Source: a virus (taxonomy: Duplodnaviria; Heunggongvirae; Uroviricota; Caudoviricetes). From it: a stretch of 64,000 nucleotides of DNA. The first letter of the stretch is position 1. Each line of letters opens with the position of its first letter. Both the position numbers and the translations under genes were made by a program. The stretch is taken from positions 172,420-236,419 of IMG/VR virus record IMGVR_UViG_3300037418_003161. One strand, given 5' to 3'. Shown here in pieces: positions 30,124-53,002 of this stretch. The notes beneath the pieces were generated by a model. It was not told the DNA's origin, made no database searches, and saw only the letters and a program-made list of their open reading frames with translations.

Positions 30124-30195
30124 TGCCCTGTGGTGTAACGGCAAGCATGTAACACTCTGAATGTTACGGAACAAGTTCGAATCTTGTCAGGGCGA
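30124..30195 (+). tRNA. tRNA-Gln (anticodon CTG)
   Basis: Hand-folded cloverleaf: acceptor TGCCCTG/CAGGGCG, anticodon stem TAACA/TGTTA, loop CTCTGAA, T-arm ACAAG-TTCGAAT-CTTGT. Confidence 0.7.
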
Positions 30196-30200
30196 CACAA

Positions 30201-30272
30201 TCCCATGTGGTGTAACGCTAACATCCCACCCTTTGAAGGTGCGAGTTTCAAGTTCGAGTCTTGACATGGGAA
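30201..30272 (+). tRNA. tRNA-Gln (anticodon TTG)
   Basis: Acceptor TCCCATG/CATGGGA (7 bp), anticodon loop CTTTGAA on a 4-bp stem plus one C-C mismatch, T-arm TCAAG-TTCGAGT-CTTGA. Confidence 0.6.
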
Positions 30273-30282
30273 CAAAAAAAAT

Positions 30283-30368
30283 GGTGGATTACTCAAGCGG
30301 TTAAGAGAGCGGTTTGCTAAACCGTACAGGGTTAAAATCCTGCGTGAGTTCGATTCTCACATCCACCG
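30283..30368 (+). tRNA. tRNA-Ser (anticodon GCT), class II
   Basis: Acceptor GGTGGAT/ATCCACC, D-arm CTC...GAG with long loop, anticodon stem GCGGT/ACCGT, loop TTGCTAA, long variable arm CAGGG...CCTG, T-arm GTGAG-TTCGATT-CTCAC. Confidence 0.7.
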
Positions 30369-30373
30369 CATAC

Positions 30374-30444
30374 GTAGGTTTGGTGTAACGGTAGCATGAC
30401 GCTCTCCAAAAGCGTTGGCGGGAGTTCGAATCTCTCAATCTGCG
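30374..30444 (+). tRNA. tRNA-Trp (anticodon CCA)
   Basis: Anticodon stem ACGCT/AGCGT, loop CTCCAAA, T-arm GGGAG-TTCGAAT-CTCTC; acceptor GTAGGTT/AATCTGC with two G-U pairs. Confidence 0.65.
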
Positions 30445-30448
30445 CAAT

Positions 30449-30706
30449 ATGAAAGGACAATTTGAAGAAATTATCAAGAAGCTCAAACTCAGAAGTGAGT
30501 TGATGAGCAAACGATATTCAAACATTGTTACTCCAAGCGGAATTAAGATTATACGGATTGTTCAGAGTCTTATTGACGAAGATGTTGTTCTAATTCATAT
30601 TAAATGGAGTTACAAAGACGGTATTCCCAATTTTGAGGAATTGCAGAAATACCAAAACGAATGTTTGAAATATTGGAATGTGAAGACTGAAATAAGACGA
30701 GTATAA
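30449..30706 (+). CDS. Hypothetical protein
   Basis: 85 aa ORF directly after the tRNA cluster. Confidence 0.35.
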   Translation: MKGQFEEIIKKLKLRSELMSKRYSNIVTPSGIKIIRIVQSLIDEDVVLIHIKWSYKDGIPNFEELQKYQNECLKYWNVKTEIRRV

Positions 30707-30743
30707 TACATTGGGGATGTAGCTCAAAGGAAGAGCGGCACTT

Positions 30744-30815
30744 TGTTAAAGTGAAGGTTGAGATATCGTAATTCTCCATCCCCGCAAACCCGAAACTTTT
30801 TCCCTATAGGGCAGT
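30744..30815 (+). tRNA. tRNA-Asn-like (anticodon GTT) with atypical T-arm; possible pseudogene
   Basis: Perfect acceptor GGGGATG/CATCCCC, D-arm GCTC/GAGC, anticodon loop TTGTTAA on a 4-bp stem. T-loop reads ATCGTAA and the T-stem has a T-T mismatch. Confidence 0.45.
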
Positions 30816-30869
30816 ATAGGGATAGATGCTGCCACATCGAAAAGAGGGAGTAGGGAAAGTTATTAACAT

Positions 30870-30941
30870 GGTGTATGAAGCTTTAAGGTGAAGCACTTGG
30901 TTGTGGGCCAAGGGAAGTCGGTTCGATACCGTCCTTACACC
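30870..30941 (+). tRNA. tRNA-His (anticodon GTG) with G-1
   Basis: Extra 5' G at 30870 opposite discriminator C (His hallmark). Acceptor GTGTATG/CTTACAC, anticodon stem CTTGG/CCAAG, loop TTGTGGG, T-loop TTCGATA. Confidence 0.7.
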
Positions 30942-30953
30942 CAAATTATTTTT

Positions 30954-31241
30954 ATGAATAAGGAACAGAAAATTAGATTGGCTGACATGCTTTTGGAATT
31001 TGTAAGCAACAATCAGGAAGACAGGGTGAATCTGCCCCGGATGGTTGGAACACTTACAAAGGCCCAAGGTCTGAACGGCTTTAAACGTGCTGAAATTGGA
31101 ACACCCGTTTTTGATATTGGTGACAAATATATGATAATGATTGAAAGCCTTGATGGTAATAGAAATGTTGAGGTAACTTATTATAAAGATACATTGAAAC
31201 CTGTCATTGAGTTTGATGGTGAAGCAAAAGTTATTTCATAA
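30954..31241 (+). CDS. Hypothetical protein
   Basis: ATG 30954 (MNKEQKIRLADML...) just after tRNA-His; ORF-track start 30888 lies inside the tRNA. Confidence 0.35.
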   Translation: MNKEQKIRLADMLLEFVSNNQEDRVNLPRMVGTLTKAQGLNGFKRAEIGTPVFDIGDKYMIMIESLDGNRNVEVTYYKDTLKPVIEFDGEAKVIS

Positions 31242-31278
31242 AAGGTAGACTTTCAACTTTGGAAGAACTTAATAATAA

Positions 31279-31357
31279 TGGCGTGTATAGAGCCATCCTG
31301 ATGAGATGGATATTCTTAGCGGTATTGAAAACGTGGGTTCGAATCCCACCACGCCAA
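31279..31357 (+). tRNA. Non-canonical tRNA-like gene (hairpin loop CTGATGA would give anticodon GAT, Ile)
   Basis: Perfect acceptor TGGCGTG/CACGCCA and T-arm GTGGG-TTCGAAT-CCCAC. The body has only one clean hairpin (CCATC-CTGATGA-GATGG) plus 5 nt before and 23 nt after it; no standard D-arm. Confidence 0.35.
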
Positions 31358-31371
31358 CCAAGGGAACAGGT

Positions 31372-31396
31372 AGTGGTTCGACTCCACTCAGGCATA
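31372..31396 (+). ncRNA. Isolated tRNA 3'-half-like element (T-arm AGTGG-TTCGACT-CCACT plus 7 nt)
   Basis: Canonical T-arm with no matching 5' acceptor half within 90 nt upstream. Confidence 0.3.
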
Positions 31397-31444
31397 GATT
31401 CTACGTTTGTAGCATTTGATGGTAGTGCAGTTCCCGCCTTTTAT

Positions 31445-31526
31445 GGCCCCGTAACAGCACCGTCTTCGAAACGGTACGCATTGTAATGGAAGGAAGATGT
31501 GAGTTCGACCCTCACCGGGGCTTCCA
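31445..31526 (+). tRNA. Non-canonical tRNA-like gene with encoded CCA (hairpin loop CTTCGAA would give anticodon TCG, Arg)
   Basis: Acceptor GGCCCCG/CGGGGCT, discriminator T, then CCA. T-arm GTGAG-TTCGACC-CTCAC. Body architecture mirrors 31279-31357: 5 nt, then hairpin ACCGT-CTTCGAA-ACGGT, then 23 nt. Confidence 0.35.
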
Positions 31527-31531
31527 AAGTT

Positions 31532-31556
31532 GTAGGTTCGAGTCCTACTCAGTCTG
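31532..31556 (+). ncRNA. Isolated tRNA 3'-half-like element (T-arm GTAGG-TTCGAGT-CCTAC plus 7 nt)
   Basis: Second T-arm-only element, immediately after the preceding tRNA-like gene and before a T-run. Confidence 0.3.
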
Positions 31557-31580
31557 CGATTTTTTATTTATCTTTGTTCC

Positions 31581-31940
31581 ATGAAAACCATTGTTGAACA
31601 AATGATTGAGGCCGGGTATAGGAAATTTACACCATCCTCATATTATCACGCCAAAGAAGCGTATCAGGCTCGCATCAGGGATGAAGTTGGAACTCGGTAT
31701 TTTATAACTTGTTACATTTACAATTTCAGTGATTTAGCACAGGAGCCACAAGAGGATAGTTACAGCTTTGAGGTTCAGTATGATAGTCACGGAAATCAAA
31801 CATTTGATGTGAGAAGGGGTGGGTGGTTTGGGCCGAATAAGTGGAACCATCCATATTTAACACTCCGGGAAATTGAAGATTTTTTCGGTCTCATTTGGGA
31901 AACAACTGGACGATTGTATTATGAAAAAGATGAATATTAA
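31581..31940 (+). CDS. Hypothetical protein
   Basis: 119 aa; ATG follows the promoter motif TTATTTATCTTTGTTCC. Confidence 0.45.
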   Translation: MKTIVEQMIEAGYRKFTPSSYYHAKEAYQARIRDEVGTRYFITCYIYNFSDLAQEPQEDSYSFEVQYDSHGNQTFDVRRGGWFGPNKWNHPYLTLREIEDFFGLIWETTGRLYYEKDEY

Positions 31941-31950
31941 ATTTATAAAG

Positions 31951-32035
31951 GGGTAGTTGGTCGAGTGGTCGATGGCGGCAGTCTGCAAAACTGTTGGGAG
32001 CAATCCCCGCACAGGTTCGAATCCTGTACTACCCT
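31951..32035 (+). tRNA. tRNA with Cys anticodon GCA and U73 but a class II (long variable arm) body
   Basis: Perfect acceptor GGGTAGT/ACTACCC, Ser-like D-arm GTC-GAGTGGTCGAT-GGC, anticodon stem GCAGT/ACTGT, loop CTGCAAA. 16-nt variable arm GGGA-GCAA-TCCC (GNRA loop). T-arm ACAGG-TTCGAAT-CCTGT, discriminator T. Confidence 0.6.
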
Positions 32036-32036
32036 C

Positions 32037-35930: not shown

Positions 35931-36221
35931 ATGGAAAGGAAACCTAGAAAAAAATACGAAAAGCGTGTCCCAACGGATGAAAAACTGTACCGCTTTTCCA
36001 AGCGGCACGTTCCCCTTAAAGGCTCAGATGGTCAAATGCATTACGTCTATTCGCTGAACGTGCCGCAGGACATTGTGGAAAGGTTTCAGGAAGGGATAGC
36101 CTTTCAAGTTAAGCTGACAGAGGATGGGATTTTGTTTGTACCAGTAGTGGTGCAGGAAGTGTCCAAAACCATCACGGTCAAAGAGTATGCGCCAGTAAAA
36201 ATAAACGAGGTCTTAAAATGA
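35931..36221 (+). CDS. Hypothetical protein
   Basis: ATG 35931 (MERKPRKKYEKR...) follows the promoter motif at 35903-35921; ORF-track start 35760 is upstream of the motif. Confidence 0.4.
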   Translation: MERKPRKKYEKRVPTDEKLYRFSKRHVPLKGSDGQMHYVYSLNVPQDIVERFQEGIAFQVKLTEDGILFVPVVVQEVSKTITVKEYAPVKINEVLK

Positions 36222-36856
36222 GGTATACGAAATACCATTTCATTTATCCACCATACATTGAAAAAGAAATCAAAACAACCGAATTGGGTCGCTTCGATAC
36301 AGGATGGATGTACCAACCCAAACTCAATGGGTCGTGTTGTGTGGTTTTTATCAACGGTGAGGACATTCGTATTCTAAACCGACACGATAAGCCCCTACAG
36401 GATTTTACAATCCCAATAAGTGAAATCAAGGCTCTTTACAACATGCCGAGCAAGCGCAAGGGTTGGTTGGTACTGGTGGGGGAGTACATGAATAAATCTC
36501 AAAAAGATGAAAACAATTTACTTTTCAACCATAAATTGGTATTGTTTGACATCTTGGTGTTTGATTGTCAGTACTTGGTAGCTACTACCTTTCAAGAACG
36601 CTATTTGATGATGACGGCCTTGTATGGGAAAGAGCGGCACGATAAACCATACCTGACTCAAATCACCGACAATATTTACAAAGTGGTGAGTTTTGAGGGA
36701 AGCGTGAAGGGAACCTACGACTTCCTGACCATGTTTCAAATCTATGACGGCGTGGTAGGAAAGAAGAAGAACGGAGTATTAGAATTTGGAGATAAGGAAA
36801 AGAATACCATTAAAACACAAATAAAAGTTTGTAAATCTATGAAAAACTATGAATAG
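36218..36856 (+). CDS. ATP-dependent nucleic-acid ligase, minimal nucleotidyltransferase domain
   Basis: 212 aa. Ligase motifs in order: motif I KLNGSC (KxDG-type), motif III LVLVGEY, motif IV LVLFDILVFD, motif V DGVVGKKKNG. Confidence 0.68.
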   Translation: MRYTKYHFIYPPYIEKEIKTTELGRFDTGWMYQPKLNGSCCVVFINGEDIRILNRHDKPLQDFTIPISEIKALYNMPSKRKGWLVLVGEYMNKSQKDENNLLFNHKLVLFDILVFDCQYLVATTFQERYLMMTALYGKERHDKPYLTQITDNIYKVVSFEGSVKGTYDFLTMFQIYDGVVGKKKNGVLEFGDKEKNTIKTQIKVCKSMKNYE

Positions 36857-37070
36857 TGAAATAAACAAATCCATTCTTTGGTTGGCGGTAATGACCATTA
36901 TTATATTGGGGGGGATTGCCTATTTTGCTTACAGCCCCAAACTAAAGAAAAGGGACTACACCTACTCAATAAACGGAGGCAATGTTGATACCTTTTTACT
37001 GGATAAAAATGAATGTGCCACTCTGATTATTAATAAAGACACAATACGAATTTGTAATGGAAAACACTAA
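36849..37070 (+). CDS. Small membrane protein
   Basis: 73 aa with one hydrophobic helix. Confidence 0.3.
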   Translation: MNSEINKSILWLAVMTIIILGGIAYFAYSPKLKKRDYTYSINGGNVDTFLLDKNECATLIINKDTIRICNGKH

Positions 37071-37251
37071 TACATTGGGAATCAGCCAAGGCTTATACAA
37101 CTACGGTATAATGGTTTTTGGGGAAGAAGAAAAATTCATCAAATGGTGGAATTCACCCATTCGGGCTTTGGGGAATAAAAAACCTTCAGAAGTTAGCGAA
37201 CTGGAAGCAAGAACAATCCTTACCCGGATTGAATACGGCATCTACTCTTGA
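37057..37251 (+). CDS. DUF2384 (Xre/MbcA/ParS antitoxin C-terminal domain)-like small protein
   Basis: 64 aa. KFIKWWNSPIRALGNKKPSEVSELEARTILTRIEYGIYS matches the W..P...LGG..P.ELL.T..G...V...L.RIEYG.Y consensus of that domain. Terminator follows at 37278-37304. Confidence 0.6.
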   Translation: MENTNTLGISQGLYNYGIMVFGEEEKFIKWWNSPIRALGNKKPSEVSELEARTILTRIEYGIYS

Positions 37252-37277
37252 TTTTGTCATTATATGTTGTATGTTTC

Positions 37278-37304
37278 ACCCCGGATGTTGTTCCGGGGTT
37301 TTTG
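37278..37304 (+). terminator. Terminator of the CCCCGGA family
   Basis: CACCCCGGA-TGTTGT-TCCGGGGTTTTTG after the DUF2384-like gene. Confidence 0.55.
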
Positions 37305-37339
37305 TTTGACTTTGTAAAATAAATTTTATATTATTTAAC

Positions 37340-37864
37340 ATGTCAATATCTGTTATCAAAGGGGATTTAATTGCGCTTGCCCAAGCCGGAGAGTTTGAGG
37401 TTATTGGGCATGGGTGTAACTGTTTTTGTACTATGAAACGTGGCATTGCTCCGCTGATGGACAAAGCTTTTGGATGCAACAACCCACAAATCTTCTTTAA
37501 TGAAAATAAGTATTATTCGGGGGATATTCGAAAATTGGGTCAAATCGAAGCCAAAGGCAGACCCCGGATTATAGGCAACCCCGACAACCTTGTGACCGTA
37601 GTGAACATGTACACCCAATACCACTGGAATGACCCCTCACCTAAATATGGTGTTCCCTTGGATGAAGATGCCATGCGCCTTTGTTTGCGCAAGATGGGTC
37701 GCCTCTATAAAGATAAAACCATTGCCCTGCCCGGACTTATTGGTTGCGGTCTTGCCGGAGGCAATCCCAAGCACATTGTGGAGATGATTGAAGAAGAACT
37801 CGAAAATTGCGATGTAAAAATTGTTTTTATCGATGAATCCAAAATTCCAGATTTTTTAAAATAA
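37340..37864 (+). CDS. Macro domain protein (ADP-ribose binding or hydrolase)
   Basis: 174 aa. GDLIAL...VIGHGCNCFCTMKRGIAPLM and ALPGLIGCGLAGGNPKHI resemble the macro-domain Gly-rich loops. Confidence 0.7.
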   Translation: MSISVIKGDLIALAQAGEFEVIGHGCNCFCTMKRGIAPLMDKAFGCNNPQIFFNENKYYSGDIRKLGQIEAKGRPRIIGNPDNLVTVVNMYTQYHWNDPSPKYGVPLDEDAMRLCLRKMGRLYKDKTIALPGLIGCGLAGGNPKHIVEMIEEELENCDVKIVFIDESKIPDFLK

Positions 37865-38010
37865 CCTATGGAACCTCAATCGCTAATAACTGGTGTACAA
37901 CAGCTTATTAGGAGACCTCTGTCAATAGCGGCATGTCGTTAATGCATAGGTAAAATCCCCATCAAAAGGTGGGGATTTGACTTTGTAAATTATTTTTTCT
38001 ATGTTTTTCT

Positions 38011-38205
38011 ATGGAAAGAAATTTATACAACCACATATTTTGGTACAACGAGTACACGGAATTGTGGTACGCCATTCCAAGAGACCATCAAATGGATTTT
38101 TTTGGTCTAAACAATCAGGCCGTTGCTATTTCAGGGAAAGACATCACAGTTCTTGTCGAACTAATTCGTAAACCACACCTTTTAGAAAAACTACAAAATC
38201 AATAA
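38011..38205 (+). CDS. Hypothetical protein
   Basis: 64 aa ORF, preceded by a TTGACTTTGTAAA promoter-like element. Confidence 0.3.
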   Translation: MERNLYNHIFWYNEYTELWYAIPRDHQMDFFGLNNQAVAISGKDITVLVELIRKPHLLEKLQNQ

Positions 38206-38207
38206 TT

Positions 38208-39164
38208 ATGTCAATTACATCCATCGTTGTTCTGGCAATAAGCGGAATAGTGGGCCTTGCGCTTATCGTTAGCTTATTTCAATCATTCTTCACTGTAAAA
38301 CAGGGAACTGTAGCTGTTGTTACACGGCTTGGCAAGTTTCATAAAATTTGTACTACCGGGCTGAATTTCAAAGTCCCTTATATTGATAGCCTCCTTGGGG
38401 TTATTTCCTTACAAAACAGGTCGGCCTCGGTTGCGTTTCAGTCCATAACTTCTGACCAAGCCAACGTGTATTTCAACGCTATGTTGTTGTATTCAGCCAC
38501 AAATAGTGACGAGGATACCATTAAAAACATCGCCTTCAAATTCCGCACTGAACAGGAGTTCGCCTCTACTCTGCAAAGAACCATTGAAGGAGCGGTACGG
38601 GCATACGTGGCAACCAAAAAACAAGCGGAGGTGCTTACCCTCAGACGAGAAATTGTTGACCATGTAAAGGCCGAATTGGATGGTACACTACACAGTTGGG
38701 GCTATCATCTGTCGGATTTACAAATCAATGATATCACATTTGACAAGGCTATCATGGATTCGATGAGCAAAGTAGTAGCCTCCAATAATCTAAAAGCCGC
38801 CGCAGAAAATGAAGGTCAGGCGTTGTATATTCAAAAGACCAAGGCTGCGGAAGCGGAAGGGCAAGCCATTAAAATTCAAGCCGAAGCCGAGGCTACTGCC
38901 GCCCAACTACGGGGACAAGGGGTTGCCAAGTTCCGGGAAGAAGTGGCGAAGGGCCTAACCCAATCGGCTGAAATGTTGCATTCCGCTAATATGGATACCA
39001 ACGTTATCATGTTCAGCATGTGGACGGAAGCCATCAAAAACTTTGCGGAATACGGTAAGGGGAATGTTATCTTTTTGGATGGTTCAGCCCAAGGGATGGA
39101 CAATACCCTAAAGCAAATCCAAGCCATGATACAATCAAAACAGGCCGACTATGTTAATAACTGA
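38208..39164 (+). CDS. SPFH/band-7 (stomatin/prohibitin/HflKC-like) membrane protein
   Basis: 318 aa. N-terminal TM helix, FTVKQGTVAVVTRLGKF core, and an Ala/Glu-rich coiled-coil tail (AEAEGQAIKIQAEAEATAAQLRGQG) typical of the family. Confidence 0.82.
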   Translation: MSITSIVVLAISGIVGLALIVSLFQSFFTVKQGTVAVVTRLGKFHKICTTGLNFKVPYIDSLLGVISLQNRSASVAFQSITSDQANVYFNAMLLYSATNSDEDTIKNIAFKFRTEQEFASTLQRTIEGAVRAYVATKKQAEVLTLRREIVDHVKAELDGTLHSWGYHLSDLQINDITFDKAIMDSMSKVVASNNLKAAAENEGQALYIQKTKAAEAEGQAIKIQAEAEATAAQLRGQGVAKFREEVAKGLTQSAEMLHSANMDTNVIMFSMWTEAIKNFAEYGKGNVIFLDGSAQGMDNTLKQIQAMIQSKQADYVNN

Positions 39165-39636
39165 TGATTTTGTTTTCTTCTATAAATCATTCTATTCGCA
39201 ATGGAAAATTGCGCCAGTAAGAATTGATGGAAGAACCTACAACTGCTCTGAACAATACATGATGCATAGGAAAGCCACTTTGTTTGAGGATTGGGAAACC
39301 GCAGATAAAATCATGAAAGCAGAACACCCAAGAGACCATCAGTCTCTTGGGCGTACTGTTAAAAATTTTAATCAGGAAGTATGGAACGCCAATGCAAGGG
39401 AAATTGTGTATCAGGCAAACCTAGCCAAGTATATGCAGCACGAAGATATGCGAAAAGAAATGCTGGCAACCGGGAATAGAAAATTTGTTGAAGCTTCCCC
39501 CACTGATATCATATGGGGTGTTGGTCTTGGTGAAAAAGACCCTTTAATCGTTGACCCCAAAAATTGGAGAGGAACAAACTGGTTGGGACAAGCATTGGAT
39601 AGAGTGAAAGCAACTTTGTTACAGACCAAGAATTAA
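39151..39636 (+). CDS. NADAR (YbiA/DUF1768) domain protein
   Basis: 161 aa. FFYKSFYSQW...IDGRTYNCSEQYMMHRKA...KFVEASPTDIIWGVGLG matches the YbiA/NADAR hallmarks (F.Y.S..SNF, SEQ(Y/F), E.SP.D..WG.G). Confidence 0.78.
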   Translation: MLITDDFVFFYKSFYSQWKIAPVRIDGRTYNCSEQYMMHRKATLFEDWETADKIMKAEHPRDHQSLGRTVKNFNQEVWNANAREIVYQANLAKYMQHEDMRKEMLATGNRKFVEASPTDIIWGVGLGEKDPLIVDPKNWRGTNWLGQALDRVKATLLQTKN

Positions 39637-41496: not shown

Positions 41497-43293
41497 ATGC
41501 CTCTACAAACCCCCGCTAAAAATGCCTTAAAATTCATAGGCTTTATAGCACTGTTAGCAATCGTTGGCTTCGGAGTAGTAAAATACCGCAGCCGCCCAAG
41601 AGATGTAAAAGCCGCCATGGAAATTGGCTCGGTTCAACTCCCTGATGCCCCGGAAGCCTCCTTAAGCGGTGCATCTGCTGTCAAATTAAACTTCCCTTCT
41701 ACGGATGTATCTGTAAATGGGGGAACACGACTTACATGGTTTCAAATGGCGTGGAACAGCCAGTTGGCGACCCACTATGCCAACGGTGGTGTGAAAACTA
41801 CCAAAGGGTCGCTCTATGATAAGTATAAACTTCAGGTGGAAATCAAACGTCAGGATGATTGTAATAAATCCATTGCTGATTTGATTAAATTCGCTCAGGA
41901 TGTCAAAGAACGTGGAACGGATATTCCCGGTGTACTTTGCTCTTATATGGGAGATGGGATGCCAGCGTTCTTTGCTACCCTTCAAAAAGAACTCAGCAAA
42001 CTTGGCCCCGAATACCAAGCCATTGCTTTTGGGTTTACGCCCGGAAAATCTGATGGGGAAGACCAAGTGTTGGCCCCGGTGGAATGGAAGCGTGACCCCA
42101 AGGCTGCATTGGGTAAAACTGTTGCTTGTTACTTAAGGGATGGGGATATGAACATCCTTTTAAAATGGGCCGGAGACAATAACCTCAAGGTCAACCCCAA
42201 TGAAACCACGTATGATAGTTCAGCTATCAACCTTGTTGCCGCCAATGATTTCTTGGATGCTGCCAACAAATATATTACTGGCTACCGGGAAACAAGAAAG
42301 GTTGCAAGAAATGGAAAAACCACTGGTGAAACCATTGAAGTAGGGGTGGACGCTGTGGCAACATGGACTCCCGGCGATGTGAATGTTGCCAAAAAGAAAG
42401 GTGGGTTGATAACCCTTGTTTCTACCAAACAGTATTCCCAACAAATGCCCAACATTACCATCACCATAAAAAAATGGGCCGAGGCACACCGCAAAGACCT
42501 TCAAAATTTGATTTTGGCAACTGCACAGGCAGGAGACCAAGTGCGCTCTTATAATGACGCCAAGGAATTTGCAACCAACGTCTCTGCTAAAATATGGCAA
42601 GAACAGGATGGTGCGTATTGGTTAAAATATTACAACGGGGCGACTGAAAAAGATGCGCAAGGGTTAAATGTAAATTTGGGTGGTTCAAAAGTATTCAACC
42701 TAACCGATATGGCGAATGTCTTTGGCTTGGGTGCAGATGGAATTGACCGCTATAAGGCTGTATATACCACGTTTGGTGACATTCTTTCCAAAATGTATCC
42801 AGATATCATGCCCAAATATCCAAACTATGAATCAGTGGTGGATAAAAGCTACTTAGCGGCTGTCTTGGAAAGCGATGAAGGTAAAGCCTTGTTACAGGGT
42901 AAAGCACTCAATGATACCAAGACCTATTCTACCGATATCGTTGAAGAAACATCCAATAAATCCTACGCTATTCAGTTTGAAACGGGCAGTGCCAAGATTA
43001 AACCTGAATCCTATGCTCTGTTAAATGAAATCTTCAATTCGGCTGTGGTGGCTGAAAGTCTGAGTCTTGGAGTGTATGGTCATACCGACAACACTGGTAC
43101 GGATGAACAAAACCAAGCATTATCAGAAGCAAGGGCCGAGGCCGTTAAAACCTATCTCACCAAAAAGGGTATTGCCGAAAAGCGCATTATTACCAAGGGG
43201 TATGGTAGTTCACAACCTGTAGTGGGGGTTGATGTCAACAGCACATCGGGCCGGGCGCAGAACCGCAGGGTACAAATTGTATTGGGTGAATAA
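41497..43293 (+). CDS. Periplasmic substrate-binding-like protein fused to a C-terminal OmpA/MotB peptidoglycan-binding domain
   Basis: 598 aa. N-terminal signal/TM. C-terminus YGHTDNTGTDEQNQALSEARAEAVKTYLTKKGI...NRRVQIV is a clear OmpA_C motif. The central ~400 aa are assigned as binding-protein-like only from operon context with the permease and ATPase genes. Confidence 0.6.
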   Translation: MPLQTPAKNALKFIGFIALLAIVGFGVVKYRSRPRDVKAAMEIGSVQLPDAPEASLSGASAVKLNFPSTDVSVNGGTRLTWFQMAWNSQLATHYANGGVKTTKGSLYDKYKLQVEIKRQDDCNKSIADLIKFAQDVKERGTDIPGVLCSYMGDGMPAFFATLQKELSKLGPEYQAIAFGFTPGKSDGEDQVLAPVEWKRDPKAALGKTVACYLRDGDMNILLKWAGDNNLKVNPNETTYDSSAINLVAANDFLDAANKYITGYRETRKVARNGKTTGETIEVGVDAVATWTPGDVNVAKKKGGLITLVSTKQYSQQMPNITITIKKWAEAHRKDLQNLILATAQAGDQVRSYNDAKEFATNVSAKIWQEQDGAYWLKYYNGATEKDAQGLNVNLGGSKVFNLTDMANVFGLGADGIDRYKAVYTTFGDILSKMYPDIMPKYPNYESVVDKSYLAAVLESDEGKALLQGKALNDTKTYSTDIVEETSNKSYAIQFETGSAKIKPESYALLNEIFNSAVVAESLSLGVYGHTDNTGTDEQNQALSEARAEAVKTYLTKKGIAEKRIITKGYGSSQPVVGVDVNSTSGRAQNRRVQIVLGE

Positions 43294-43368
43294 GTCGTTT
43301 TTTGTGCTTAGAAAAGAGGGTCATCGGGGGGATAGTAAATATTCCCCCCACTCTCTAACTTAAAAAAC

Positions 43369-43599
43369 ATGAATCATTATTTTACATTCGGACAAGCCCA
43401 CATTAGCACCAAGGGTGTCAGCATGAAAGATTATTGGGTTCGGGTCATCGCCAGTAATGCGGAGGAAGCCAGAGAAAAATTTATAAAAAATTTTACTTCA
43501 ATTTACATGCGTAACGAAAACCAATGGTCTTTTCAATATGCGGAGAAGGCGTTCAACCCCTCTTTTTTCCCCAAAGGCGAATACCGTTTAATTGAGTAA
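43369..43599 (+). CDS. Hypothetical protein
   Basis: 76 aa ORF. Confidence 0.3.
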   Translation: MNHYFTFGQAHISTKGVSMKDYWVRVIASNAEEAREKFIKNFTSIYMRNENQWSFQYAEKAFNPSFFPKGEYRLIE

Positions 43600-44401
43600 A
43601 ATGAAACAACAAGCAATCGCAATCAGCCGGGGTCTCGTTACCCCTTTTGATAAAATCAACAAACAGGTCTTCTTGATGACTTTGTTGATTGAATGGTTTT
43701 TAATCCTAACGGTGTGGCAAATCAACGGGGGTGCTTTGATTCCAAAGCCACTGGCAATCTTGGAGAAACTCTTCAACGTATTTCAGACCGAAGATTTCAT
43801 CCAGAATTTGCTTACCAGTTTAATTTTGACGTTAAAGGCCATTTTCTTTGGTACAATCATATCCTTGGTTTTTGCCTATGGGTATAAAATCGGCGTATTA
43901 AAGCCTTTTGTGCAGTTCATAATTGTTTTAAGATATCTTCCCCTCACTGGAATCATTTTCATATTTACCCTGTTGACCAGTAATGGGGGAAACTTAAAAC
44001 TCATTCTTTTGTTATTTGGAATTGTTCCCTTTTTTGTTACTTCCATGGTATCGTTAATTGATGACATCAACCCGCAATTATACGACCTGTGTAAGACCCT
44101 GCGCATGAATCGGTGGCAAACCCTTAGAAGGGTGGTAATTGTCGGCCAATTCAATTATGTGTTTGAAGTGATGCGGCAGAACTTTGCCATTTGTTGGTTG
44201 ATGATAACCATGGTGGAAGGACTCTCCATGTCGGAAGGGGGAATTGGAACAATGCTGATTAAGCAAAATAAAACCTTGGAACTGGAATATGTTTTTGCCA
44301 TTCAAGTGACCCTGTTTTTGTTGGGTTTGGCCTTTGATGCCGGACTAAAGGCTCTGAGAAATTACCTGTTCAAATTTGTTCCACTTCAAAAAGCCAAATA
44401 A
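43592..44401 (+). CDS. ABC transporter permease (NitT/TauT-type, six TM)
   Basis: 269 aa, six hydrophobic helices; EAA-like cytoplasmic loop LRMNRWQTLRRVVIVGQ; ATGA overlap with the ATPase gene. Confidence 0.78.
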   Translation: MSKMKQQAIAISRGLVTPFDKINKQVFLMTLLIEWFLILTVWQINGGALIPKPLAILEKLFNVFQTEDFIQNLLTSLILTLKAIFFGTIISLVFAYGYKIGVLKPFVQFIIVLRYLPLTGIIFIFTLLTSNGGNLKLILLLFGIVPFFVTSMVSLIDDINPQLYDLCKTLRMNRWQTLRRVVIVGQFNYVFEVMRQNFAICWLMITMVEGLSMSEGGIGTMLIKQNKTLELEYVFAIQVTLFLLGLAFDAGLKALRNYLFKFVPLQKAK

Positions 44402-45210
44402 TGCCTTACGAAATAGCAGAAACACTTTTGAAAGCCGAGAACCTTTCAAAAACCTATGGCAACAAGCTTGTCATCCGGGATGTGTCTTTTGAAATCAAAA
44501 ACGTTACAAGACCGGGCCTGACCCAAGGTCAAATCCTGTCCCTTATCGGGGCATCGGGTGTGGGGAAATCCACTATCTTTCGGATGCTGGCCGGGCTGGA
44601 AACACCCACAAGCGGTCAAATAAAAGTGTGTATGGGACAAGGACAGGAGCTAAAACCTGTTCGTGAGGGAGATATGGGCGTGGTGTTTCAAAACTACATC
44701 ATGTTTGATGACCTGACCATCCGGGAGAACTTCAAGGTGGCATTGAAATATCGGCCCAACGCCAAAAACATTGATGCCAAAGCCTTTATTGATGCGTACT
44801 CAACGGAATTCAATCTGAGCCAACATTTGGATAAATACCCTTGTCAGCTTTCGGGGGGTCAACGCCAACGAGCGGCCATCATTGTTCAACTCTTAAATGG
44901 GTCTCCGTTTCTGCTGTTGGATGAACCCCTCTCCGGCTTGGATGTTCTGATGATTGATAAAATCACATCGCTTCTTGTCAAAATATCATTGGCCGACGAA
45001 TACCAAACCATCATCATTGTTTCCCACGATTTGGAGAACTGCCTTGCCATTTCTGATACGGCTTTCATCATTGGATTGGAAGCAGGGAAAGAAGGTGCAA
45101 TTCTGAAGGGAACAATTGACCTGATGCAAAGAGACTTGGCATGGCATCCTGATATTAAAGACCTTCCTCGTTTTAGGGATACACTAAAGGAAGTGAAGGC
45201 GATGCTATAA
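44401..45210 (+). CDS. ABC transporter ATP-binding protein
   Basis: 269 aa. Walker A GASGVGKST, signature LSGGQRQRAAI, Walker B LLLDEPLSGLD, H-loop IIVSHD. Confidence 0.9.
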   Translation: MPYEIAETLLKAENLSKTYGNKLVIRDVSFEIKNVTRPGLTQGQILSLIGASGVGKSTIFRMLAGLETPTSGQIKVCMGQGQELKPVREGDMGVVFQNYIMFDDLTIRENFKVALKYRPNAKNIDAKAFIDAYSTEFNLSQHLDKYPCQLSGGQRQRAAIIVQLLNGSPFLLLDEPLSGLDVLMIDKITSLLVKISLADEYQTIIIVSHDLENCLAISDTAFIIGLEAGKEGAILKGTIDLMQRDLAWHPDIKDLPRFRDTLKEVKAML

Positions 45211-46534: not shown

Positions 46535-47656
46535 ATGAAAGCAAGCATCGTTTTGGGACTTGGATTTGGAGACGAGGGAAAGGGTATAACAACCGACTTC
46601 CTCTGCTCCAATTCCGATAATCCCATTGTTGTAAGATTTTCAGGTGGACAACAAGCCGGACACACCGTTGTAAAAAATGGTGTCCGGCATATTCATTCCA
46701 GTTATGGAAGCGGCACTCTCCGGGGTGTTCCTTCTTATTTTAGTGAACACACCACTATGTATTTGAACAGCCTTGTTAATGAACGAGAAGTTCTTTTACA
46801 AAAAGGGATTACCCCGGAACTGTACCTACATCCGCTTACCATGGTAACAACACCTTATGATGTTGCGTATAACAGGCTGATGGAAGAGAAAATAAAGCAT
46901 GGGTCATGCGGGTTAGGTATTGCGGCCACCATGAAGCGCAACTTGGAAACCGGGTATAAATTGTATGCGGTGGATTTGAAATATCCGTCTGTTTATAAGC
47001 AAAAAATTGAAGCTATAAAAAAATACTATAGCGGTAAGGTAATGCTTCACGACCAACTGGACTATATTCGCTTGTATGATTATGCGGAAGATTATTTCTT
47101 TGAAAACCTTGAGCGAAAAGACCTTTTCCAAGTTGAGGACTATTCATGTTTGTATGGATATGACCACATCATTTTTGAAGGGTCGCAGGGAATATTATTG
47201 GATATGAATCATGGTTTTTTCCCCAATGTAACCTACGCCAACACCACAAGTAAAAATGTTTTGGAAATTTACAATAAGCTTTCAGGTCACAAAATACCAC
47301 CTCAAATCTATTATGTCACCCGGTGTTACCAAACACGGCATGGCCGGGGGTGGATGAGTAATGAACAGAACTTGGGCCTCGTCAACAATAAAAAGGAAAC
47401 CAATGTCACCAACAACTGGCAGGAGAATTTCCGGGTAGGAGAAATCGACTACGACCTGATTAATTATGCCTTGGACGTGGACAGTATTTATTCCAAGAAT
47501 CTTGTTAAAAAACTGGTGGTAACATGTCTTGACCAACGCCCCGGATTTCAGTTTGACTACACGAAACTCAAATACAGTTTCAAAAGGTATTTGGAATCCC
47601 GCTCAGATGAAACAAAATTAGTCCCTAATAAAAACCAGTATGCTGCAAGCCATTAA
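46535..47656 (+). CDS. purA: Adenylosuccinate synthetase-like protein (PurA family; short, archaeal/PurZ-sized)
   Basis: 373 aa. P-loop GLGFGDEGKGITTD and GGQQAGHTV match the PurA GDEGKGK and GNNAGHT motifs. Shorter than the ~430 aa bacterial PurA. Confidence 0.82.
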   Translation: MKASIVLGLGFGDEGKGITTDFLCSNSDNPIVVRFSGGQQAGHTVVKNGVRHIHSSYGSGTLRGVPSYFSEHTTMYLNSLVNEREVLLQKGITPELYLHPLTMVTTPYDVAYNRLMEEKIKHGSCGLGIAATMKRNLETGYKLYAVDLKYPSVYKQKIEAIKKYYSGKVMLHDQLDYIRLYDYAEDYFFENLERKDLFQVEDYSCLYGYDHIIFEGSQGILLDMNHGFFPNVTYANTTSKNVLEIYNKLSGHKIPPQIYYVTRCYQTRHGRGWMSNEQNLGLVNNKKETNVTNNWQENFRVGEIDYDLINYALDVDSIYSKNLVKKLVVTCLDQRPGFQFDYTKLKYSFKRYLESRSDETKLVPNKNQYAASH

Positions 47657-51028: not shown

Positions 51029-51110
51029 GTCGGTGTGGTGAAATTGGTAGACACACTACGCTCAAAACGTAACGGCATTGGCCATGTCAGTTCGAGTCTG
51101 ACCACCGACA
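51029..51110 (+). tRNA. tRNA-Leu (anticodon CAA), class II
   Basis: Acceptor GTCGGTG/CACCGAC, D-arm GTG/CAC, anticodon loop CTCAAAA, variable arm GGC-ATTG-GCC, T-arm GTCAG-TTCGAGT-CTGAC. Preceded by a terminator and a TTGACA-N17-TATATT element. Confidence 0.7.
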
Positions 51111-51111
51111 C

Positions 51112-51513
51112 ATGGATGACAATTTTGAAAAACTTCTGGAAGAGAAATTAAAAAAGAAAGGGCCTTTTTTAAGAATTGCTGTGGAGAGGCAATTAGCTTG
51201 GGAACTCTATTGTTCTTTATGCAATCAGGTGTGGATTGCCAAAGAATATGATGAAGCGGAGTTTAAGCAATGGCATGATGAATATTATGCTTTCAACAGC
51301 TTACTTGAACTTAAATTTCCCAAATATCTTTCCTATAGTTGGAGGGGTGCGGGAGCATTACTATCACGTTGTGTAGAAGGAACGAATGATTATATGAGTT
51401 TTTATTGTTGTAGGGACGAAGGAGGCATCGCTGAAGGAAAGATAACTGATAGAGCCAAACAATTGTGGGAAAGCATGGGATATAAATTGTTTGTAGATTT
51501 TTATAAAGATTAG
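51112..51513 (+). CDS. Hypothetical protein
   Basis: 133 aa ORF starting 1 nt after the tRNA. Confidence 0.4.
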   Translation: MDDNFEKLLEEKLKKKGPFLRIAVERQLAWELYCSLCNQVWIAKEYDEAEFKQWHDEYYAFNSLLELKFPKYLSYSWRGAGALLSRCVEGTNDYMSFYCCRDEGGIAEGKITDRAKQLWESMGYKLFVDFYKD

Positions 51514-51602
51514 AGAAGGGGTATTGTAATAATCAGGATGTCTCGTAAAAAGCGGGTCGTACAGGGCCATTGAAGTCCGAGTCAACCGCCATCCTGATAT
51601 AT

Positions 51603-51689
51603 GCGCTTGTGGTGTAACTGGAAGCCACGACAGGTTTAAGCCCTGTTCCGACATTGCATCGGGTGAAGGTTCGAGTCCTTTCAGGCGCA
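51603..51689 (+). tRNA. tRNA-Leu (anticodon TAA), class II
   Basis: Acceptor GCGCTTG/CAGGCGC, anticodon stem ACAGG/CCTGT, loop TTTAAGC, variable arm CCGA...TCGG, T-arm GAAGG-TTCGAGT-CCTTT. Confidence 0.7.
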
Positions 51690-51770
51690 CAAAAAGAGAG
51701 ATTTGGCGAGATATAAGAAGATTATATCCGGCCAAAAGTGGTAAAAAAAAAGTGAGTTTTGGCGAAATAT

Positions 51771-51852
51771 GGACACGTAGCAAAGCGGCAAAGTCGGAAG
51801 ACTGTAAATCTTCTCCCTCCGGGGTTCGTAGGTTCGAGTCCTACCGTGTCCA
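51771..51852 (+). tRNA. tRNA-Tyr (anticodon GTA), class II
   Basis: Acceptor GGACACG/CGTGTCC, anticodon stem GAAGA/TCTTC, loop CTGTAAA, variable arm CCC...GGG, T-arm GTAGG-TTCGAGT-CCTAC. Confidence 0.72.
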
Positions 51853-51863
51853 CTTATTATTAT

Positions 51864-51945: not shown

Positions 51946-51950
51946 CAAAT

Positions 51951-52998: not shown

Positions 52999-53002
52999 AA
53001 TT

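What the first reader, a model, noticed from the sequence alone, without database searches (positions are those of the whole stretch)
37057..39636. Cluster of ADP-ribose and NAD-related genes: DUF2384/ParS-like antitoxin domain, macro domain, SPFH and NADAR; possible counter-defence against ADP-ribosylating toxins
Three nearly contiguous plus-strand genes carry domains that each neutralise or reverse a different ADP-ribosyltransferase or NAD-targeting toxin. The DUF2384 domain is the C-terminal module of MbcA/ParS/Xre antitoxins that partner RES and ParT toxins. Macro domains (as in DarG) remove ADP-ribose from DNA or protein. NADAR/YbiA domains have been reported to reverse guanine ADP-ribosylation. 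A phage is unlikely to need antitoxins for itself. Together with the distant Sir2 gene, this looks like an anti-ADP-ribosylation / anti-NADase counter-defence set, which has not been described as a unit. The SPFH gene between macro and NADAR may be functionally linked or a passenger.
Basis: partly seen in the sequence, partly recalled or inferred. Interest (0 to 1): 0.85.

Follow-up and report, generated by a model that had tools for sequence, protein, structure and literature searches.

The report
Phage anti-RES and NAD-rescue gene island
A giant phage carries, side by side, a stripped-down copy of a bacterial antitoxin domain, an ADP-ribose-phosphate phosphatase and an ADP-ribose glycosidase; most of this belongs to a recently described way for phages to survive bacterial NAD+ destruction, and only the stolen antitoxin fragment looks new.

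Summary
Window 37057-39636 encodes five plus-strand ORFs:
- a 64-aa bare DUF2384/Xre-MbcA-ParS toxin-binding domain
- a 174-aa macro domain
- a 64-aa unknown ORF
- a 318-aa SPFH protein
- a 161-aa NADAR

The window is a jumbo phage.

The macro is not DarG-like. It belongs to the Adpp family, the ADPR-1''-phosphate phosphatase that phages insert into NARP1 NAD+-rebuilding operons to beat RES-domain (aRES) defence (bioRxiv 2026.01.28.702374). It is 37% identical to Vibrio phage Gary Adpp and keeps His24. Its 69%-identical orthologue in the closest relative lies between Adps and Namat. Among 80 viral loci with this macro, 41 have Adps-like, 38 Namat-like and 18 NADAR genes nearby. None has DUF2384 or SPFH.

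The NADAR is YbiA-type (catalytic Glu), not the T4 AdfN or DarG1 type.

The 64-aa protein keeps the fold, motifs and C-terminal plug of RES antitoxins. It lacks the HTH domain and any RES partner, and it is unrelated to the known aRES inhibitor aRad1. I read it as an orphan-antitoxin inhibitor of host RES NADases, which I did not find described.

A terminator separates it from the macro, so this is an island and not one unit. SPFH is a passenger.

The parts
36849..37070 (+). 73-aa predicted membrane protein. It overlaps the start of the DUF2384 gene by 14 nt. It is context only, the last-but-one gene of the upstream transcription unit.
   Evidence: ORF list. No Pfam or PHROG hit. A homologue in L003 at 5684-5905 is 36% identical.
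37057..37251 (+). Orphan RES-antitoxin toxin-binding domain (DUF2384 / Xre_MbcA_ParS_C). It is 64 aa, has no HTH domain and no partner toxin. Predicted inhibitor of host RES-domain NADases.
   Evidence: PF09722, 28.7 bits, above the cut-off. Profile against PDB: 8GUG_B at 2.5e-9. AF2 pLDDT 91, Foldseek hits only RES antitoxins. Nearest full-length relatives are 148-159-aa HTH+DUF2384 antitoxins of Bacteroidota, 44-47% identical. The conserved motif and C-terminus ...RIEYGIYS are kept. No RES was found in the window with an HMM built from the RES-like ORFs of 75 genome loci. The gene is identical in two other metagenome contigs.
37278..37299 (+). Intrinsic-terminator-like hairpin: an 8-bp stem with 6 G-C pairs, followed by TTTTTGTTT. 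It lies between the DUF2384 and macro genes.
   Evidence: Terminator scan. RNA fold of 37252-37339 gives -18.4 kcal/mol, z = -2.9 against shuffles. Sequence read.
37340..37864 (+). Macro-domain protein of the Adpp family. Predicted ADP-ribose-1''-phosphate phosphatase, Poa1p-like.
   Evidence: 37% identity, E 4e-26, to the characterised Adpp of Vibrio phage Gary (sequence from Table S4 of 10.64898/2026.01.28.702374). His24, the residue mutated in Adpp H24A, is invariant in the family alignment. AF2 pLDDT 94 with a macro fold. The orthologue in L003 (69% identity) lies between Adps and Namat. Among 80 viral loci, 41 have Adps-like and 38 have Namat-like genes.
38011..38205 (+). 64-aa ORF of unknown function. 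Its stop is 2 nt before the SPFH start.
   Evidence: ORF list. No Pfam, PHROG or PADLOC hit. It is 61% identical to L004 8497-8754, where no SPFH follows.
38208..39164 (+). SPFH/Band-7 membrane protein with an N-terminal hydrophobic anchor. It is a lineage-specific accessory gene with no demonstrable link to the ADP-ribose genes.
   Evidence: PF01145, 102 bits. 82% identical to L003 10637-11641. Absent from L004 and from all 80 macro loci. Only 3 weak matches in 50,697 cultured phage records.
39151..39636 (+). NADAR domain protein of the YbiA subfamily. Predicted ADP-ribosyl N-glycosidase. It overlaps the SPFH stop by 14 nt.
   Evidence: PF08719, 164 bits. Best PDB hits are P. nicotianae NADAR 8BAU at 2.7e-18 and E. 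coli YbiA at 1.4e-10. Glu34 and Glu114 align with the ADPr-contacting E43 and E125 of 8BAU (PMC11543638). 61% identical to L003 12965-13450. A NADAR gene lies within 4 kb of the macro in 18 of 80 viral loci, typically between Adpp and Namat.

Best explanation
This is part of a variable accessory island of a jumbo phage. It holds several independent, separately transcribed genes that protect the infection against host attacks on NAD+. It is not a single machine.

(a) The 64-aa protein is the toxin-binding domain of a RES-Xre type II antitoxin. It was probably captured from a Bacteroidota-type host and stripped of its DNA-binding half. I infer that it binds host RES-domain NAD+ phosphorylases or ADP-ribosyltransferases, whether TA toxins or aRES-like defence proteins. 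It would plug their NAD+ pocket with its conserved C-terminus, as ParS and MbcA do.

(b) The macro protein is an Adpp-family enzyme that converts ADPR-1''-phosphate, the product of RES enzymes, into ADP-ribose.

(c) The YbiA-type NADAR cleaves an N-glycosidic ADP-ribose conjugate and releases ADP-ribose. The substrate is unknown. Guanine-ADPr on DNA is the only activity shown for this family. In relatives both enzymes sit inside Adps/Namat (NARP1) operons, which rebuild NAD+ from ADP-ribose and nicotinamide. They are therefore best seen as feeder enzymes of NAD+ reconstitution.

(d) SPFH and the small ORF are passengers.

Shown here: domain identities, folds, conserved catalytic residues, gene contexts, and absence of a RES partner. 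Inferred: every biochemical activity and the target of the 64-aa protein.
For: DUF2384:
- Pfam hit above its cut-off.
- Profile hit to 8GUG_B at 2.5e-9, running to the last residue of both proteins.
- Foldseek finds only RES antitoxins.
- In the 80 bacterial genome loci with its nearest relatives, 76 ORFs are at least 127 aa, 66 are directly followed by a RES ORF, and 75 have a RES ORF in the locus. One example is Echinicola, with HTH+DUF2384 followed by PF08808 RES.
- In the seven distinct phage or phage-like contexts (window, L004, L006, L007, L008/L009, L010, L011/L012) the RES HMM finds nothing. No Pfam RES or ART hit appears among the roughly 90 window ORFs scanned.
- Orphan and RES-linked copies share the same conserved positions, VFG..W..ALGG..P..ILGRIEYGVYS-COOH.
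- ParS and MbcA block the toxin active site with their C-terminus (PMC7758455).

Macro:
- 37% identity, E 4e-26, to the experimentally characterised Adpp. His24 is conserved.
- L003 carries Adps, Adpp and Namat. Its Namat is 54% identical to SPbetaL1 Namat (423 bits) against 154 bits to KVP40 Nampt.
- 41 of 80 loci have Adps-like and 38 of 80 have Namat-like genes.
- aRES produces ADPR-1P, and Adpp restores NARP1 function (10.64898/2026.01.28.702374).

NADAR:
- 164 bits, with both catalytic Glu residues kept.
- Found in 18 of 80 macro loci, usually between Adpp and Namat.

Island character:
- Three syntenic relatives carry different subsets between conserved flanks.
- A terminator follows the DUF2384 gene.
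Against: - No Adps or Namat lies within the 64-kb window. I could not see the rest of the phage genome. An Adpp without NARP1 would not rebuild NAD+.
- The same macro family also occurs outside NARP1 operons. In Vequintavirinae it sits next to an RNA ligase. Family membership therefore does not fix the physiological source of ADPR-1''P.
- Binding of the 64-aa protein to any RES protein is untested. No co-folding was possible.
- aRES proteins are standalone and differ from TA-type RES toxins. An antitoxin domain may not fit them.
- DUF2384 is adjacent to the macro only in this lineage (window and L004). The side-by-side placement may be coincidental.
- E. coli YbiA, which is of the same NADAR subfamily, did not rescue DarT1 toxicity (PMC11125620). 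The NADAR substrate in vivo is open.
Confidence: 0.55

Rival explanations
1. One reading: an anti-DNA-ADP-ribosylation set. The macro acts like DarG and removes ADP-ribose from thymidine (DarT2 product). The NADAR acts like AdfN/DarG1 and removes it from guanine (DarT1 product). DUF2384 blocks ParT/RES ADP-ribosyltransferases.
For: - The macro fold is closest to the TARG1/DarG/BT1257 (ALC1-like) group.
- There is a weak PADLOC DarG hit, 21.9 bits.
- The NADAR keeps both catalytic Glu residues. All tested NADAR subfamilies hydrolyse guanine-ADPr in vitro (PMC11125620, PMC11543638).
- Phage NADAR (AdfN) and phage DarG mimics are proven counter-defences (PMC11257639, PMC11481870, PMC13309987).
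Against: - The macro is far closer to Adpp (E 4e-26) than to DarG (profile E 1e-5).
- It has Ala where TARG1 has catalytic Asp125.
- It has no DarT-binding domain. It is a 174-aa single domain.
- Its family is embedded in Adps/Namat operons.
- The NADAR is Glu-type, not the His-type AdfN or Asp-type DarG1. E. coli YbiA did not protect against DarT1 in cells (PMC11125620).
Confidence: 0.2
2. RNA-repair module. The macro is a Poa1p-like phosphatase that clears ADPR-1''-phosphate made during ligation of cleaved tRNAs. It would work with the ligase-like gene upstream (36218-36856), and NADAR would be an auxiliary enzyme.
For: - In Vequintavirinae (KB57, Av-05) the same macro family lies about 0.5 kb upstream of an RNA ligase gene.
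- The window has a ligase-like ORF two genes upstream (DNA_ligase_A_M 27 bits, RNA_ligase 18 bits).
- The window has 17 tRNA genes.
- Macro and NADAR involvement in RNA repair has been proposed (PMC9503650).
Against: - No Tpt1/KptA 2'-phosphotransferase or 2H phosphoesterase was detected among the window ORFs scanned.
- The ligase-like hit is marginal, and the gene has no counterpart in L003 or L004.
- The closest orthologue of this macro (69% identity) is inside a NARP1 operon.
Confidence: 0.1
3. Self-directed control. The 64-aa protein is the antitoxin for a RES or ParT-like toxin encoded elsewhere in the phage genome. Alternatively, macro and NADAR process products of the phage's own Sir2 and SLOG enzymes, for example O-acetyl-ADPR.
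For: - The phage encodes Sir2 and a YAcAr SLOG protein 13-18 kb downstream.
- One source annotates the macro as 'O-acetyl-ADP-ribose deacetylase'.
- RES domains have been reported in some Caudovirales (PMC3482391).
- Only 64 kb of the phage genome is visible.
Against: - No RES or ART was found in the window or in the other six distinct phage or phage-like contexts that carry an orphan DUF2384.
- Sir2 lies within 10 kb of this macro family in 0 of 80 loci.
- Cellular DUF2384 genes almost always directly precede their toxin gene (66 of 80). Here a terminator and a macro gene follow instead.
Confidence: 0.1
4. No functional relationship at all. Unrelated accessory genes lie together only because phage accessory genes pile up in the same hypervariable region.
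For: - Relatives carry different subsets.
- A terminator lies between DUF2384 and the macro.
- DUF2384 and SPFH never accompany the macro elsewhere.
- The other orphan DUF2384 loci (L006, L008-L012) have no macro, and only L007 has a weak NADAR-like ORF.
Against: - Macro-NADAR linkage recurs in 18 of 80 loci, and both are tied to Adps/Namat.
- DUF2384 and Adpp both point biochemically at RES enzymes, one at the enzyme and the other at its product.
- DUF2384 also lies about 1.2 kb upstream of the macro in L004.
Confidence: 0.05

Closest known systems
NARP1-AP: Adps-Adpp-Namat operons of phages (Osterman et al., bioRxiv 10.64898/2026.01.28.702374)
   Same: The window macro is a homologue of Adpp (37% identity, His24 kept). 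Its orthologue in the closest relative, L003, lies between Adps and Namat. About half of the 80 viral loci with this macro family have the same arrangement.
   Different: The window itself has no Adps or Namat within 64 kb. A NADAR gene, often present between Adpp and Namat (18 of 80 loci), is not mentioned in that paper.
aRad1, small phage inhibitors that plug the aRES active site (same preprint)
   Same: Both are small phage proteins. The proposed mode of action for the 64-aa protein is the same: bind the RES domain and block the NAD+ pocket.
   Different: There is no sequence relationship (hhalign probability 0.2%). aRad1 has no annotated domain and uses a flexible loop. The window protein is a recognisable antitoxin domain that would use its C-terminus.
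RES-Xre / MbcTA / ParST type II toxin-antitoxin systems
   Same: The domain family, the fold (8GUG_B, 6GW6_B, 6FKG_C), the conserved motifs and the C-terminal end are the same.
   Different: There is no N-terminal HTH domain, no adjacent or detectable RES/ParT gene, and the gene is phage-encoded. It is therefore not a TA system.
Orphan antitoxin counter-defences: AdfN (T4 gp30.3 NADAR) and phage DarG mimics such as ICP1 AdfB and the chimallivirus DarG2-like protein
   Same: The concept is the same: a phage carries the antitoxin half of a host TA defence without the toxin.
   Different: Those are enzymes that reverse the toxin's product on DNA. The 64-aa protein would be a stoichiometric binder of a different toxin class. 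The window NADAR is Glu-type (YbiA), not His-type AdfN.
Jumbo-phage NAD+/ADPr gene repertoires described by Iyer, Aravind and colleagues (PMC7824862, PMC9503650)
   Same: Macro, NADAR, Sir2 and SLOG occur together in one large phage. Macro and NADAR were predicted there to degrade soluble ADPr derivatives, including ADPr-1''P. NADAR is reported next to NAD-salvage genes.
   Different: Those surveys do not mention DUF2384 antitoxin domains or SPFH in phages (0 occurrences of either term).

Membership tests
Xre/MbcA/ParS antitoxin (RES-Xre type II TA) | C-terminal toxin-binding domain PF09722 (sequence) | tested here: met
   28.7 bits against a cut-off of 24.5. Profile hit to 8GUG_B at E 2.5e-9.
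Xre/MbcA/ParS antitoxin (RES-Xre type II TA) | Fold of the toxin-binding domain | tested here: met
   AF2 pLDDT 91. Foldseek hits 8GUG_B, 6GW6_B, 6FKG_C and 9R35, TMq 0.59-0.70, rmsd 1.6-2.6 A (4.3 A for 6FKG_C). E-values are modest (0.009-0.5) because the domain is short.
Xre/MbcA/ParS antitoxin (RES-Xre type II TA) | N-terminal Xre-type HTH DNA-binding domain | tested here: not met
   The protein is 64 aa and the domain fills it. Bacterial relatives are 127-277 aa and carry PF20432.
Xre/MbcA/ParS antitoxin (RES-Xre type II TA) | Adjacent RES/ParT/MbcT toxin gene | tested here: not met
   A terminator and a macro gene follow instead. The RES HMM built from the RES-like ORFs of 75 genome loci finds nothing in the window. 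No Pfam RES or ART hit.
Xre/MbcA/ParS antitoxin (RES-Xre type II TA) | Binds and neutralises a RES-domain toxin | not testable with these tools
This needs co-folding and co-expression.
Adpp (macro-domain ADPR-1''P phosphatase of NARP1-AP) | Homology to the characterised Adpp (Vibrio phage Gary gp137) | tested here: met
   37% identity over 158 aa, E 4e-26.
Adpp (macro-domain ADPR-1''P phosphatase of NARP1-AP) | His24, the one Adpp residue listed as mutated (H24A primers, Table S4); the preprint reports that Adpp mutations abolish anti-aRES activity | tested here: met
   His24 is invariant in the 47-sequence alignment that includes the window protein and aligns with Gary Adpp His24.
Adpp (macro-domain ADPR-1''P phosphatase of NARP1-AP) | Located in an Adps-Namat operon | tested here: not met
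   There is no Adps or Namat in the 64-kb window. The feature is met in the orthologous locus L003 and in 38-41 of 80 family loci. The rest of the genome was not seen.
Adpp (macro-domain ADPR-1''P phosphatase of NARP1-AP) | ADPR-1''P to ADPR activity | not testable with these tools
   Enzyme assay needed.
DarG (macro antitoxin of DarT2) | Macro domain of the DarG/TARG1 type with its catalytic residues | tested here: inconclusive
   Profile E 1e-5 to DarG 5M3I. PADLOC DarG 21.9 bits. TARG1 Asp125 aligns with invariant Ala139. Alignment of Lys84 is unreliable.
DarG (macro antitoxin of DarT2) | C-terminal DarT-binding domain | tested here: not met
   It is a single 174-aa macro domain.
NADAR superfamily | PF08719 domain with the two ADPr-contacting glutamates | tested here: met
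   164 bits. Glu34 and Glu114 align with E43 and E125 of 8BAU.
AdfN (T4 gp30.3-type phage NADAR) / DarG1 NADAR | His (phage gp30.3) or Asp (DarT1-linked) in the last strand in place of Glu | tested here: not met
   The residue is Glu (...KFVEASPTD...), which is the YbiA subfamily signature (PMC11125620).
aRad1 (aRES inhibitor) | Sequence similarity to aRad1a-g | tested here: not met
   hhalign probability 0.2% between the DUF2384 profile and the aRad1 profile. No aRad1 hit in the window or in the loci held at that point, L001-L093.
SPFH/Band-7 | PF01145 domain with an N-terminal membrane anchor | tested here: met
   102 bits, residues 29-205. A hydrophobic N-terminus is visible in the translation. 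No NfeD-like partner was identified. The upstream 64-aa ORF has no family hit.

The most novel reading that the evidence does not exclude
The 64-aa protein is a hijacked antitoxin fragment that directly neutralises host RES-domain NADases, both TA toxins and aRES-type defence proteins. It would be a third anti-RES strategy, evolutionarily independent of aRad1. In this phage lineage it sits beside Adpp, so the phage attacks both the RES enzyme and its product. In addition, the YbiA-type NADAR that recurs between Adpp and Namat would be a further NARP1 feeder enzyme, releasing ADP-ribose from an N-linked ADPR conjugate made by host immunity.
Probability: 0.35. Interest if true: 0.65.

Novelty: new variant of a known kind. 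Interest (0 to 1): 0.5.

Why it matters
RES-domain NAD+ phosphorylases were shown to be an anti-phage defence only in 2026. Two phage answers are known: the Adpp phosphatase and aRad1 inhibitors. If a bare antitoxin domain also works as an inhibitor, it would show that phages can disarm a defence simply by stealing the binding half of the matching antitoxin. It would also give a sequence-searchable marker (an orphan PF09722 with no HTH and no RES gene) for finding such inhibitors. It would further suggest that classical RES-Xre TA modules, which are common in Bacteroidota, act in phage defence. The recurrent NADAR inside NARP1-AP operons points to a further, uncharacterised input into phage NAD+ reconstitution. 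The rest of the finding (macro, NADAR, Sir2 in a jumbo phage) is a new example of known biology.

Tried and rejected
- DNA-level search of the region against cultured phages found no match.
- tblastn of the 64-aa protein, and of the family consensus, against 50,697 cultured phage records found no match. The orphan domain is so far seen only in uncultured phages.
- The word-indexed homology search with the single 64-aa protein found only itself. The exhaustive HMMER search was needed. Two of its multi-stretch hits, P0126 and P0134, are repeat proteins and are spurious.
A 5-sequence alignment gave only 2 loci.
- The metagenome scan with the L003 Namat was meant to find the rest of the window's genome. 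It returned 7 unrelated contigs and not the 236-kb contig. Whether this phage has NARP1 elsewhere remains unknown.
- I considered whether aRad1 is a DUF2384 protein in disguise and rejected it.
- I considered Sir2-macro coupling through O-acetyl-ADPR. Sir2 is near the macro in 0 of 80 loci.
- I considered SPFH plus the small ORF as an SPFH-NfeD pair. The small ORF occurs without SPFH in L004, and SPFH occurs without it in L003.
- I considered the 186-aa L004 protein as evidence for a full antitoxin. Its N-terminal 130 aa have no recorded Pfam domain and no HTH match.
- The sigma-70 promoter scan is uninformative: 26 sites found against 25 expected.
- A literature search for PF09722/MbcA in phages returned only noise. 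The EVADES anti-defence catalogue does not mention DUF2384, Xre, RES or antitoxin.

Full report
**What is there**

The window is part of a large tailed phage.
- It encodes a T4-type major head protein, a portal and a large terminase, and 17 tRNA genes.
- The protein database lists a 236-kb contig as the longest carrying the 64-aa protein.

Between 37057 and 39636 there are five plus-strand ORFs.
- **37057-37251, 64 aa.** It matches Pfam PF09722 (Xre/MbcA/ParS antitoxin C-terminal toxin-binding domain, formerly DUF2384) above the curated cut-off.
- **37340-37864, 174 aa.** It is still clearly a macro domain:
  - phrog_335 at E 1e-39
  - family profile against BT1257 at E 8e-19, SCO6735 at 1e-13, TARG1 at 7e-11 and DarG at 1e-5
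  - AF2 pLDDT 94 with a macro fold
- **38011-38205, 64 aa.** It has no family hit.
- **38208-39164.** SPFH/Band-7, 102 bits.
- **39151-39636.** NADAR, 164 bits.

A YAcAr SLOG gene lies at 57145-57582. No RES or ADP-ribosyltransferase domain was found in any of the roughly 90 window ORFs scanned.

**Transcription and synteny**

The DUF2384 gene overlaps the preceding small membrane-protein gene. It is followed by a canonical terminator-like hairpin at 37278-37299: an 8-bp G+C-rich stem and a T-run, z = -2.9. The macro gene therefore probably starts a new unit. The small ORF, SPFH and NADAR are packed without gaps.

Two related phages are syntenic on both flanks but differ inside.
- **L003** (macro 69% identical): Adps-like, small ORF, macro, DUF3307, Namat-like, SPFH (82% identical), UPF0114, two ORFs, NADAR (61% identical). 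It has no DUF2384.
- **L004:** a 186-aa protein with a C-terminal DUF2384 domain about 1.2 kb upstream of the macro (which is full length from 7908), then the small ORF. It has no SPFH and no NADAR.

This is a variable accessory island, not a fixed operon.

**The macro protein**

The decisive context came from 80 IMG/VR loci that carry this macro family, out of at least 351. I scanned the six-frame ORFs within 10 kb of each.

| Gene near the macro | Loci out of 80 |
|---|---|
| Prs-like | 41 |
| NAMPT-like | 38 |
| NADAR | 18 |
| SLOG | 7 |
| DUF2384, SPFH, RES, Sir2 | 0 each |

The usual order is Prs-like, macro, (NADAR), NAMPT-like on one strand within a few kb.

A January 2026 preprint (10.64898/2026.01.28.702374) explains this arrangement.
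- Standalone RES-domain proteins (aRES) defend bacteria by converting NAD+ to nicotinamide and ADPR-1''-phosphate.
- The phage NAD+ reconstitution pathway NARP1 (Adps plus Namat) cannot use that product.
- Some phages add a macro-domain phosphatase, Adpp, between Adps and Namat. Adpp makes ADPR and restores the pathway.

The Adpp sequence of Vibrio phage Gary (Table S4) is 37% identical to the window macro over the whole domain, E 4e-26. His24, the residue changed in the authors' H24A mutant, is invariant in the family.

In L003 the NAMPT-like protein is a Namat. It is 54% identical to SPbetaL1 Namat (423 bits), against 154 bits to the NARP2 Nampt of KVP40. The Prs-like protein matches Adps.

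The window macro is therefore a member of the Adpp family. Its orthologue sits in a NARP1-AP operon. The DarG analogy is weaker: a distant match, Ala where TARG1 has Asp125, and no DarT-binding domain.

Two cautions apply.
- The window has no Adps or Namat in 64 kb, and I could not reach the rest of the genome.
- The same macro family lies next to an RNA ligase in Vequintavirinae. ADPR-1''P from RNA repair is therefore a possible alternative substrate source.

**The NADAR**

Its best solved relatives are the P. nicotianae NADAR (8BAU) and E. coli YbiA. Glu34 and Glu114 align with the two glutamates that hold the distal ribose in 8BAU (PMC11543638). The Glu in the last strand marks the YbiA subfamily. 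The DarT1-linked antitoxins have Asp and T4 AdfN has His (PMC11125620). All subfamilies hydrolyse guanine-ADPr in vitro, but E. coli YbiA did not protect cells from DarT1.

The NADAR recurs between Adpp and Namat in 18 of 80 loci. None of the NARP1 papers I read mentions this. By analogy with Adpp and RyDEP (10.64898/2026.05.28.727677), it may be another enzyme that turns an ADPR conjugate into ADPR for NARP1. This is inference.

**The 64-aa DUF2384 protein**

This is the part that looks new.
- **Fold.** A three-helix domain (pLDDT 91). Its only credible structural neighbours are the toxin-binding domains of VPA0769, P. putida Xre and MbcA. The profile match to VPA0769 runs to the last residue of both proteins.
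- **Search results.** An exhaustive search of 1.84 billion representatives gave 57 hits. About 30 are at most 100 aa. A profile search gave about 4,500. The nearest full-length ones (44-47% identical) are 148-159-aa HTH+DUF2384 RES/Xre antitoxins of Bacteroidota.
- **Bacterial context.** In the 80 bacterial genome loci with the nearest relatives, 76 ORFs are at least 127 aa, 66 are directly followed by a RES gene, and 75 have one in the locus. One example is in Echinicola.
- **Phage context.** The short copies lie in phage or phage-like settings without RES:
  - L006 and L007 are IMG/VR contigs
  - L008/L009 lie in a run of small same-strand genes
  - L010 is next to an integrase, DUF551 and an M15 peptidase
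- **Conserved positions.** Orphan and RES-linked copies conserve the same positions, VFG..W..ALGG..P..ILGRIEYGVYS-COOH. The C-terminal part of the bacterial set is biased by the search pattern. The other positions are not.
- **Mechanism in known systems.** ParS and MbcA neutralise their toxins by inserting the C-terminus into the active site (PMC7758455).
- **Relation to aRad1.** The protein is unrelated to aRad1, the published aRES inhibitor.
- **Rarity and literature.** It is absent from 50,697 cultured phage genomes at tblastn sensitivity. The jumbo-phage and viral NAD+ surveys, the aRES preprint and the EVADES catalogue do not mention it.

I conclude that it is an orphan antitoxin domain. 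Its most likely role is to bind host RES-domain enzymes. Binding itself is untested.

**SPFH and the small ORF**

SPFH is highly conserved between the window and L003. It is absent from L004 and from all 80 macro loci, and it is very rare in cultured phages. The small ORF occurs without SPFH in L004. I found nothing that ties either to ADP-ribose chemistry.

**Verdict**

- The theme, NAD+/ADP-ribose counter-defence, is right.
- The macro and NADAR are best read as NARP1-associated feeder enzymes and not as DarG/AdfN analogues.
- The genes are an island, not a unit.
- Most of it was described between 2021 and 2026.
- The new element is the orphan RES-antitoxin domain, here placed directly upstream of Adpp. 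One phage may thus carry both an inhibitor of RES enzymes and the enzyme that removes their product.

This hypothesis is specific and cheap to test. It is of moderate rather than high surprise, because orphan-antitoxin counter-defence and anti-RES inhibitors are both already known in other forms.

Noticed in passing
window 30124-32036, 51029-52313, 56054-56328: There are 17 tRNA genes by ARAGORN (Rfam adds one at 31279-31357) in three clusters that bracket the accessory region. Several class-I tRNAs are unusually long, 83-89 nt: Val-tac, Pro-tgg, Lys-ttt, Cys-gca and Tyr-gta. This suggests inserts or long variable arms.
   Followed up: no
window 52970-53689, 54551-55273, 57145-57582: Further NAD+/ADPr-linked or conflict-type genes lie downstream: Sir2 (128 bits), an R2K ATP-grasp protein (141 bits) and a YAcAr SLOG protein (37 bits). 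Sir2 was never near the macro family in 80 other phage loci.
   Followed up: partly
window 46535-47656 and 62265-63398: A short (373 aa), divergent adenylosuccinate-synthetase-like protein is present. Its best PDB match is PurA at E 6e-21. An IMPDH/GMP-reductase-like protein is also present. Whether the first is a PurZ-type enzyme (2-aminoadenine genomes) was not tested.
   Followed up: partly
window 41497-45210: A 598-aa protein with a C-terminal OmpA domain is followed by an ABC-transporter permease and ATPase. The three are conserved at 65-72% identity in relative L004. This looks like a phage-encoded transporter.
   Followed up: no
window 9952-13335 (- strand): The portal gene encodes 1127 aa. 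It has an HNH-endonuclease-like segment at residues 463-544. This may be an intein or an inserted homing endonuclease.
   Followed up: no
window 36218-36856: A 212-aa ligase-like ORF (DNA_ligase_A_M 27 bits, RNA_ligase 18 bits) lies two genes upstream of the DUF2384 gene. It has no counterpart in L003 or L004. It is relevant to the RNA-repair rival.
   Followed up: partly
L078, L085, L091, L061, L073 and others (near locus position 10000): A YbiA-type NADAR gene is inserted between Adpp and Namat in many NARP1-AP-like operons (18 of 80 loci). None of the NARP1 papers I read mentions this association.
   Followed up: partly
L181 (Klebsiella phage KB57) 4001-6062; L182 (Escherichia phage Av-05) 3983-6068: In cultured Vequintavirinae the same macro family lies about 0.5 kb upstream of an RNA ligase gene, not in a NARP1 operon. 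tblastn finds the family in 2,291 cultured phage records.
   Followed up: partly
L004 7252-7335 and 7908-8429: The L004 macro gene is full length from 7908; the public gene call starts too late. A fragment of a second macro N-terminus lies 0.6 kb upstream. It may be the remnant of a duplication.
   Followed up: partly
L007 1133-1711 and 4866-5153: An unrelated 52-kb viral contig carries a weak NADAR-like ORF (E 2e-6) about 3 kb upstream of another orphan DUF2384 gene (95 aa, with a hydrophobic N-terminus).
   Followed up: no
window 38208-39164: SPFH genes are very rare in cultured phages: 3 weak matches in 50,697 records, all Acinetobacter phages. Yet this one is 82% identical between two otherwise diverged jumbo phages.
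   Followed up: partly
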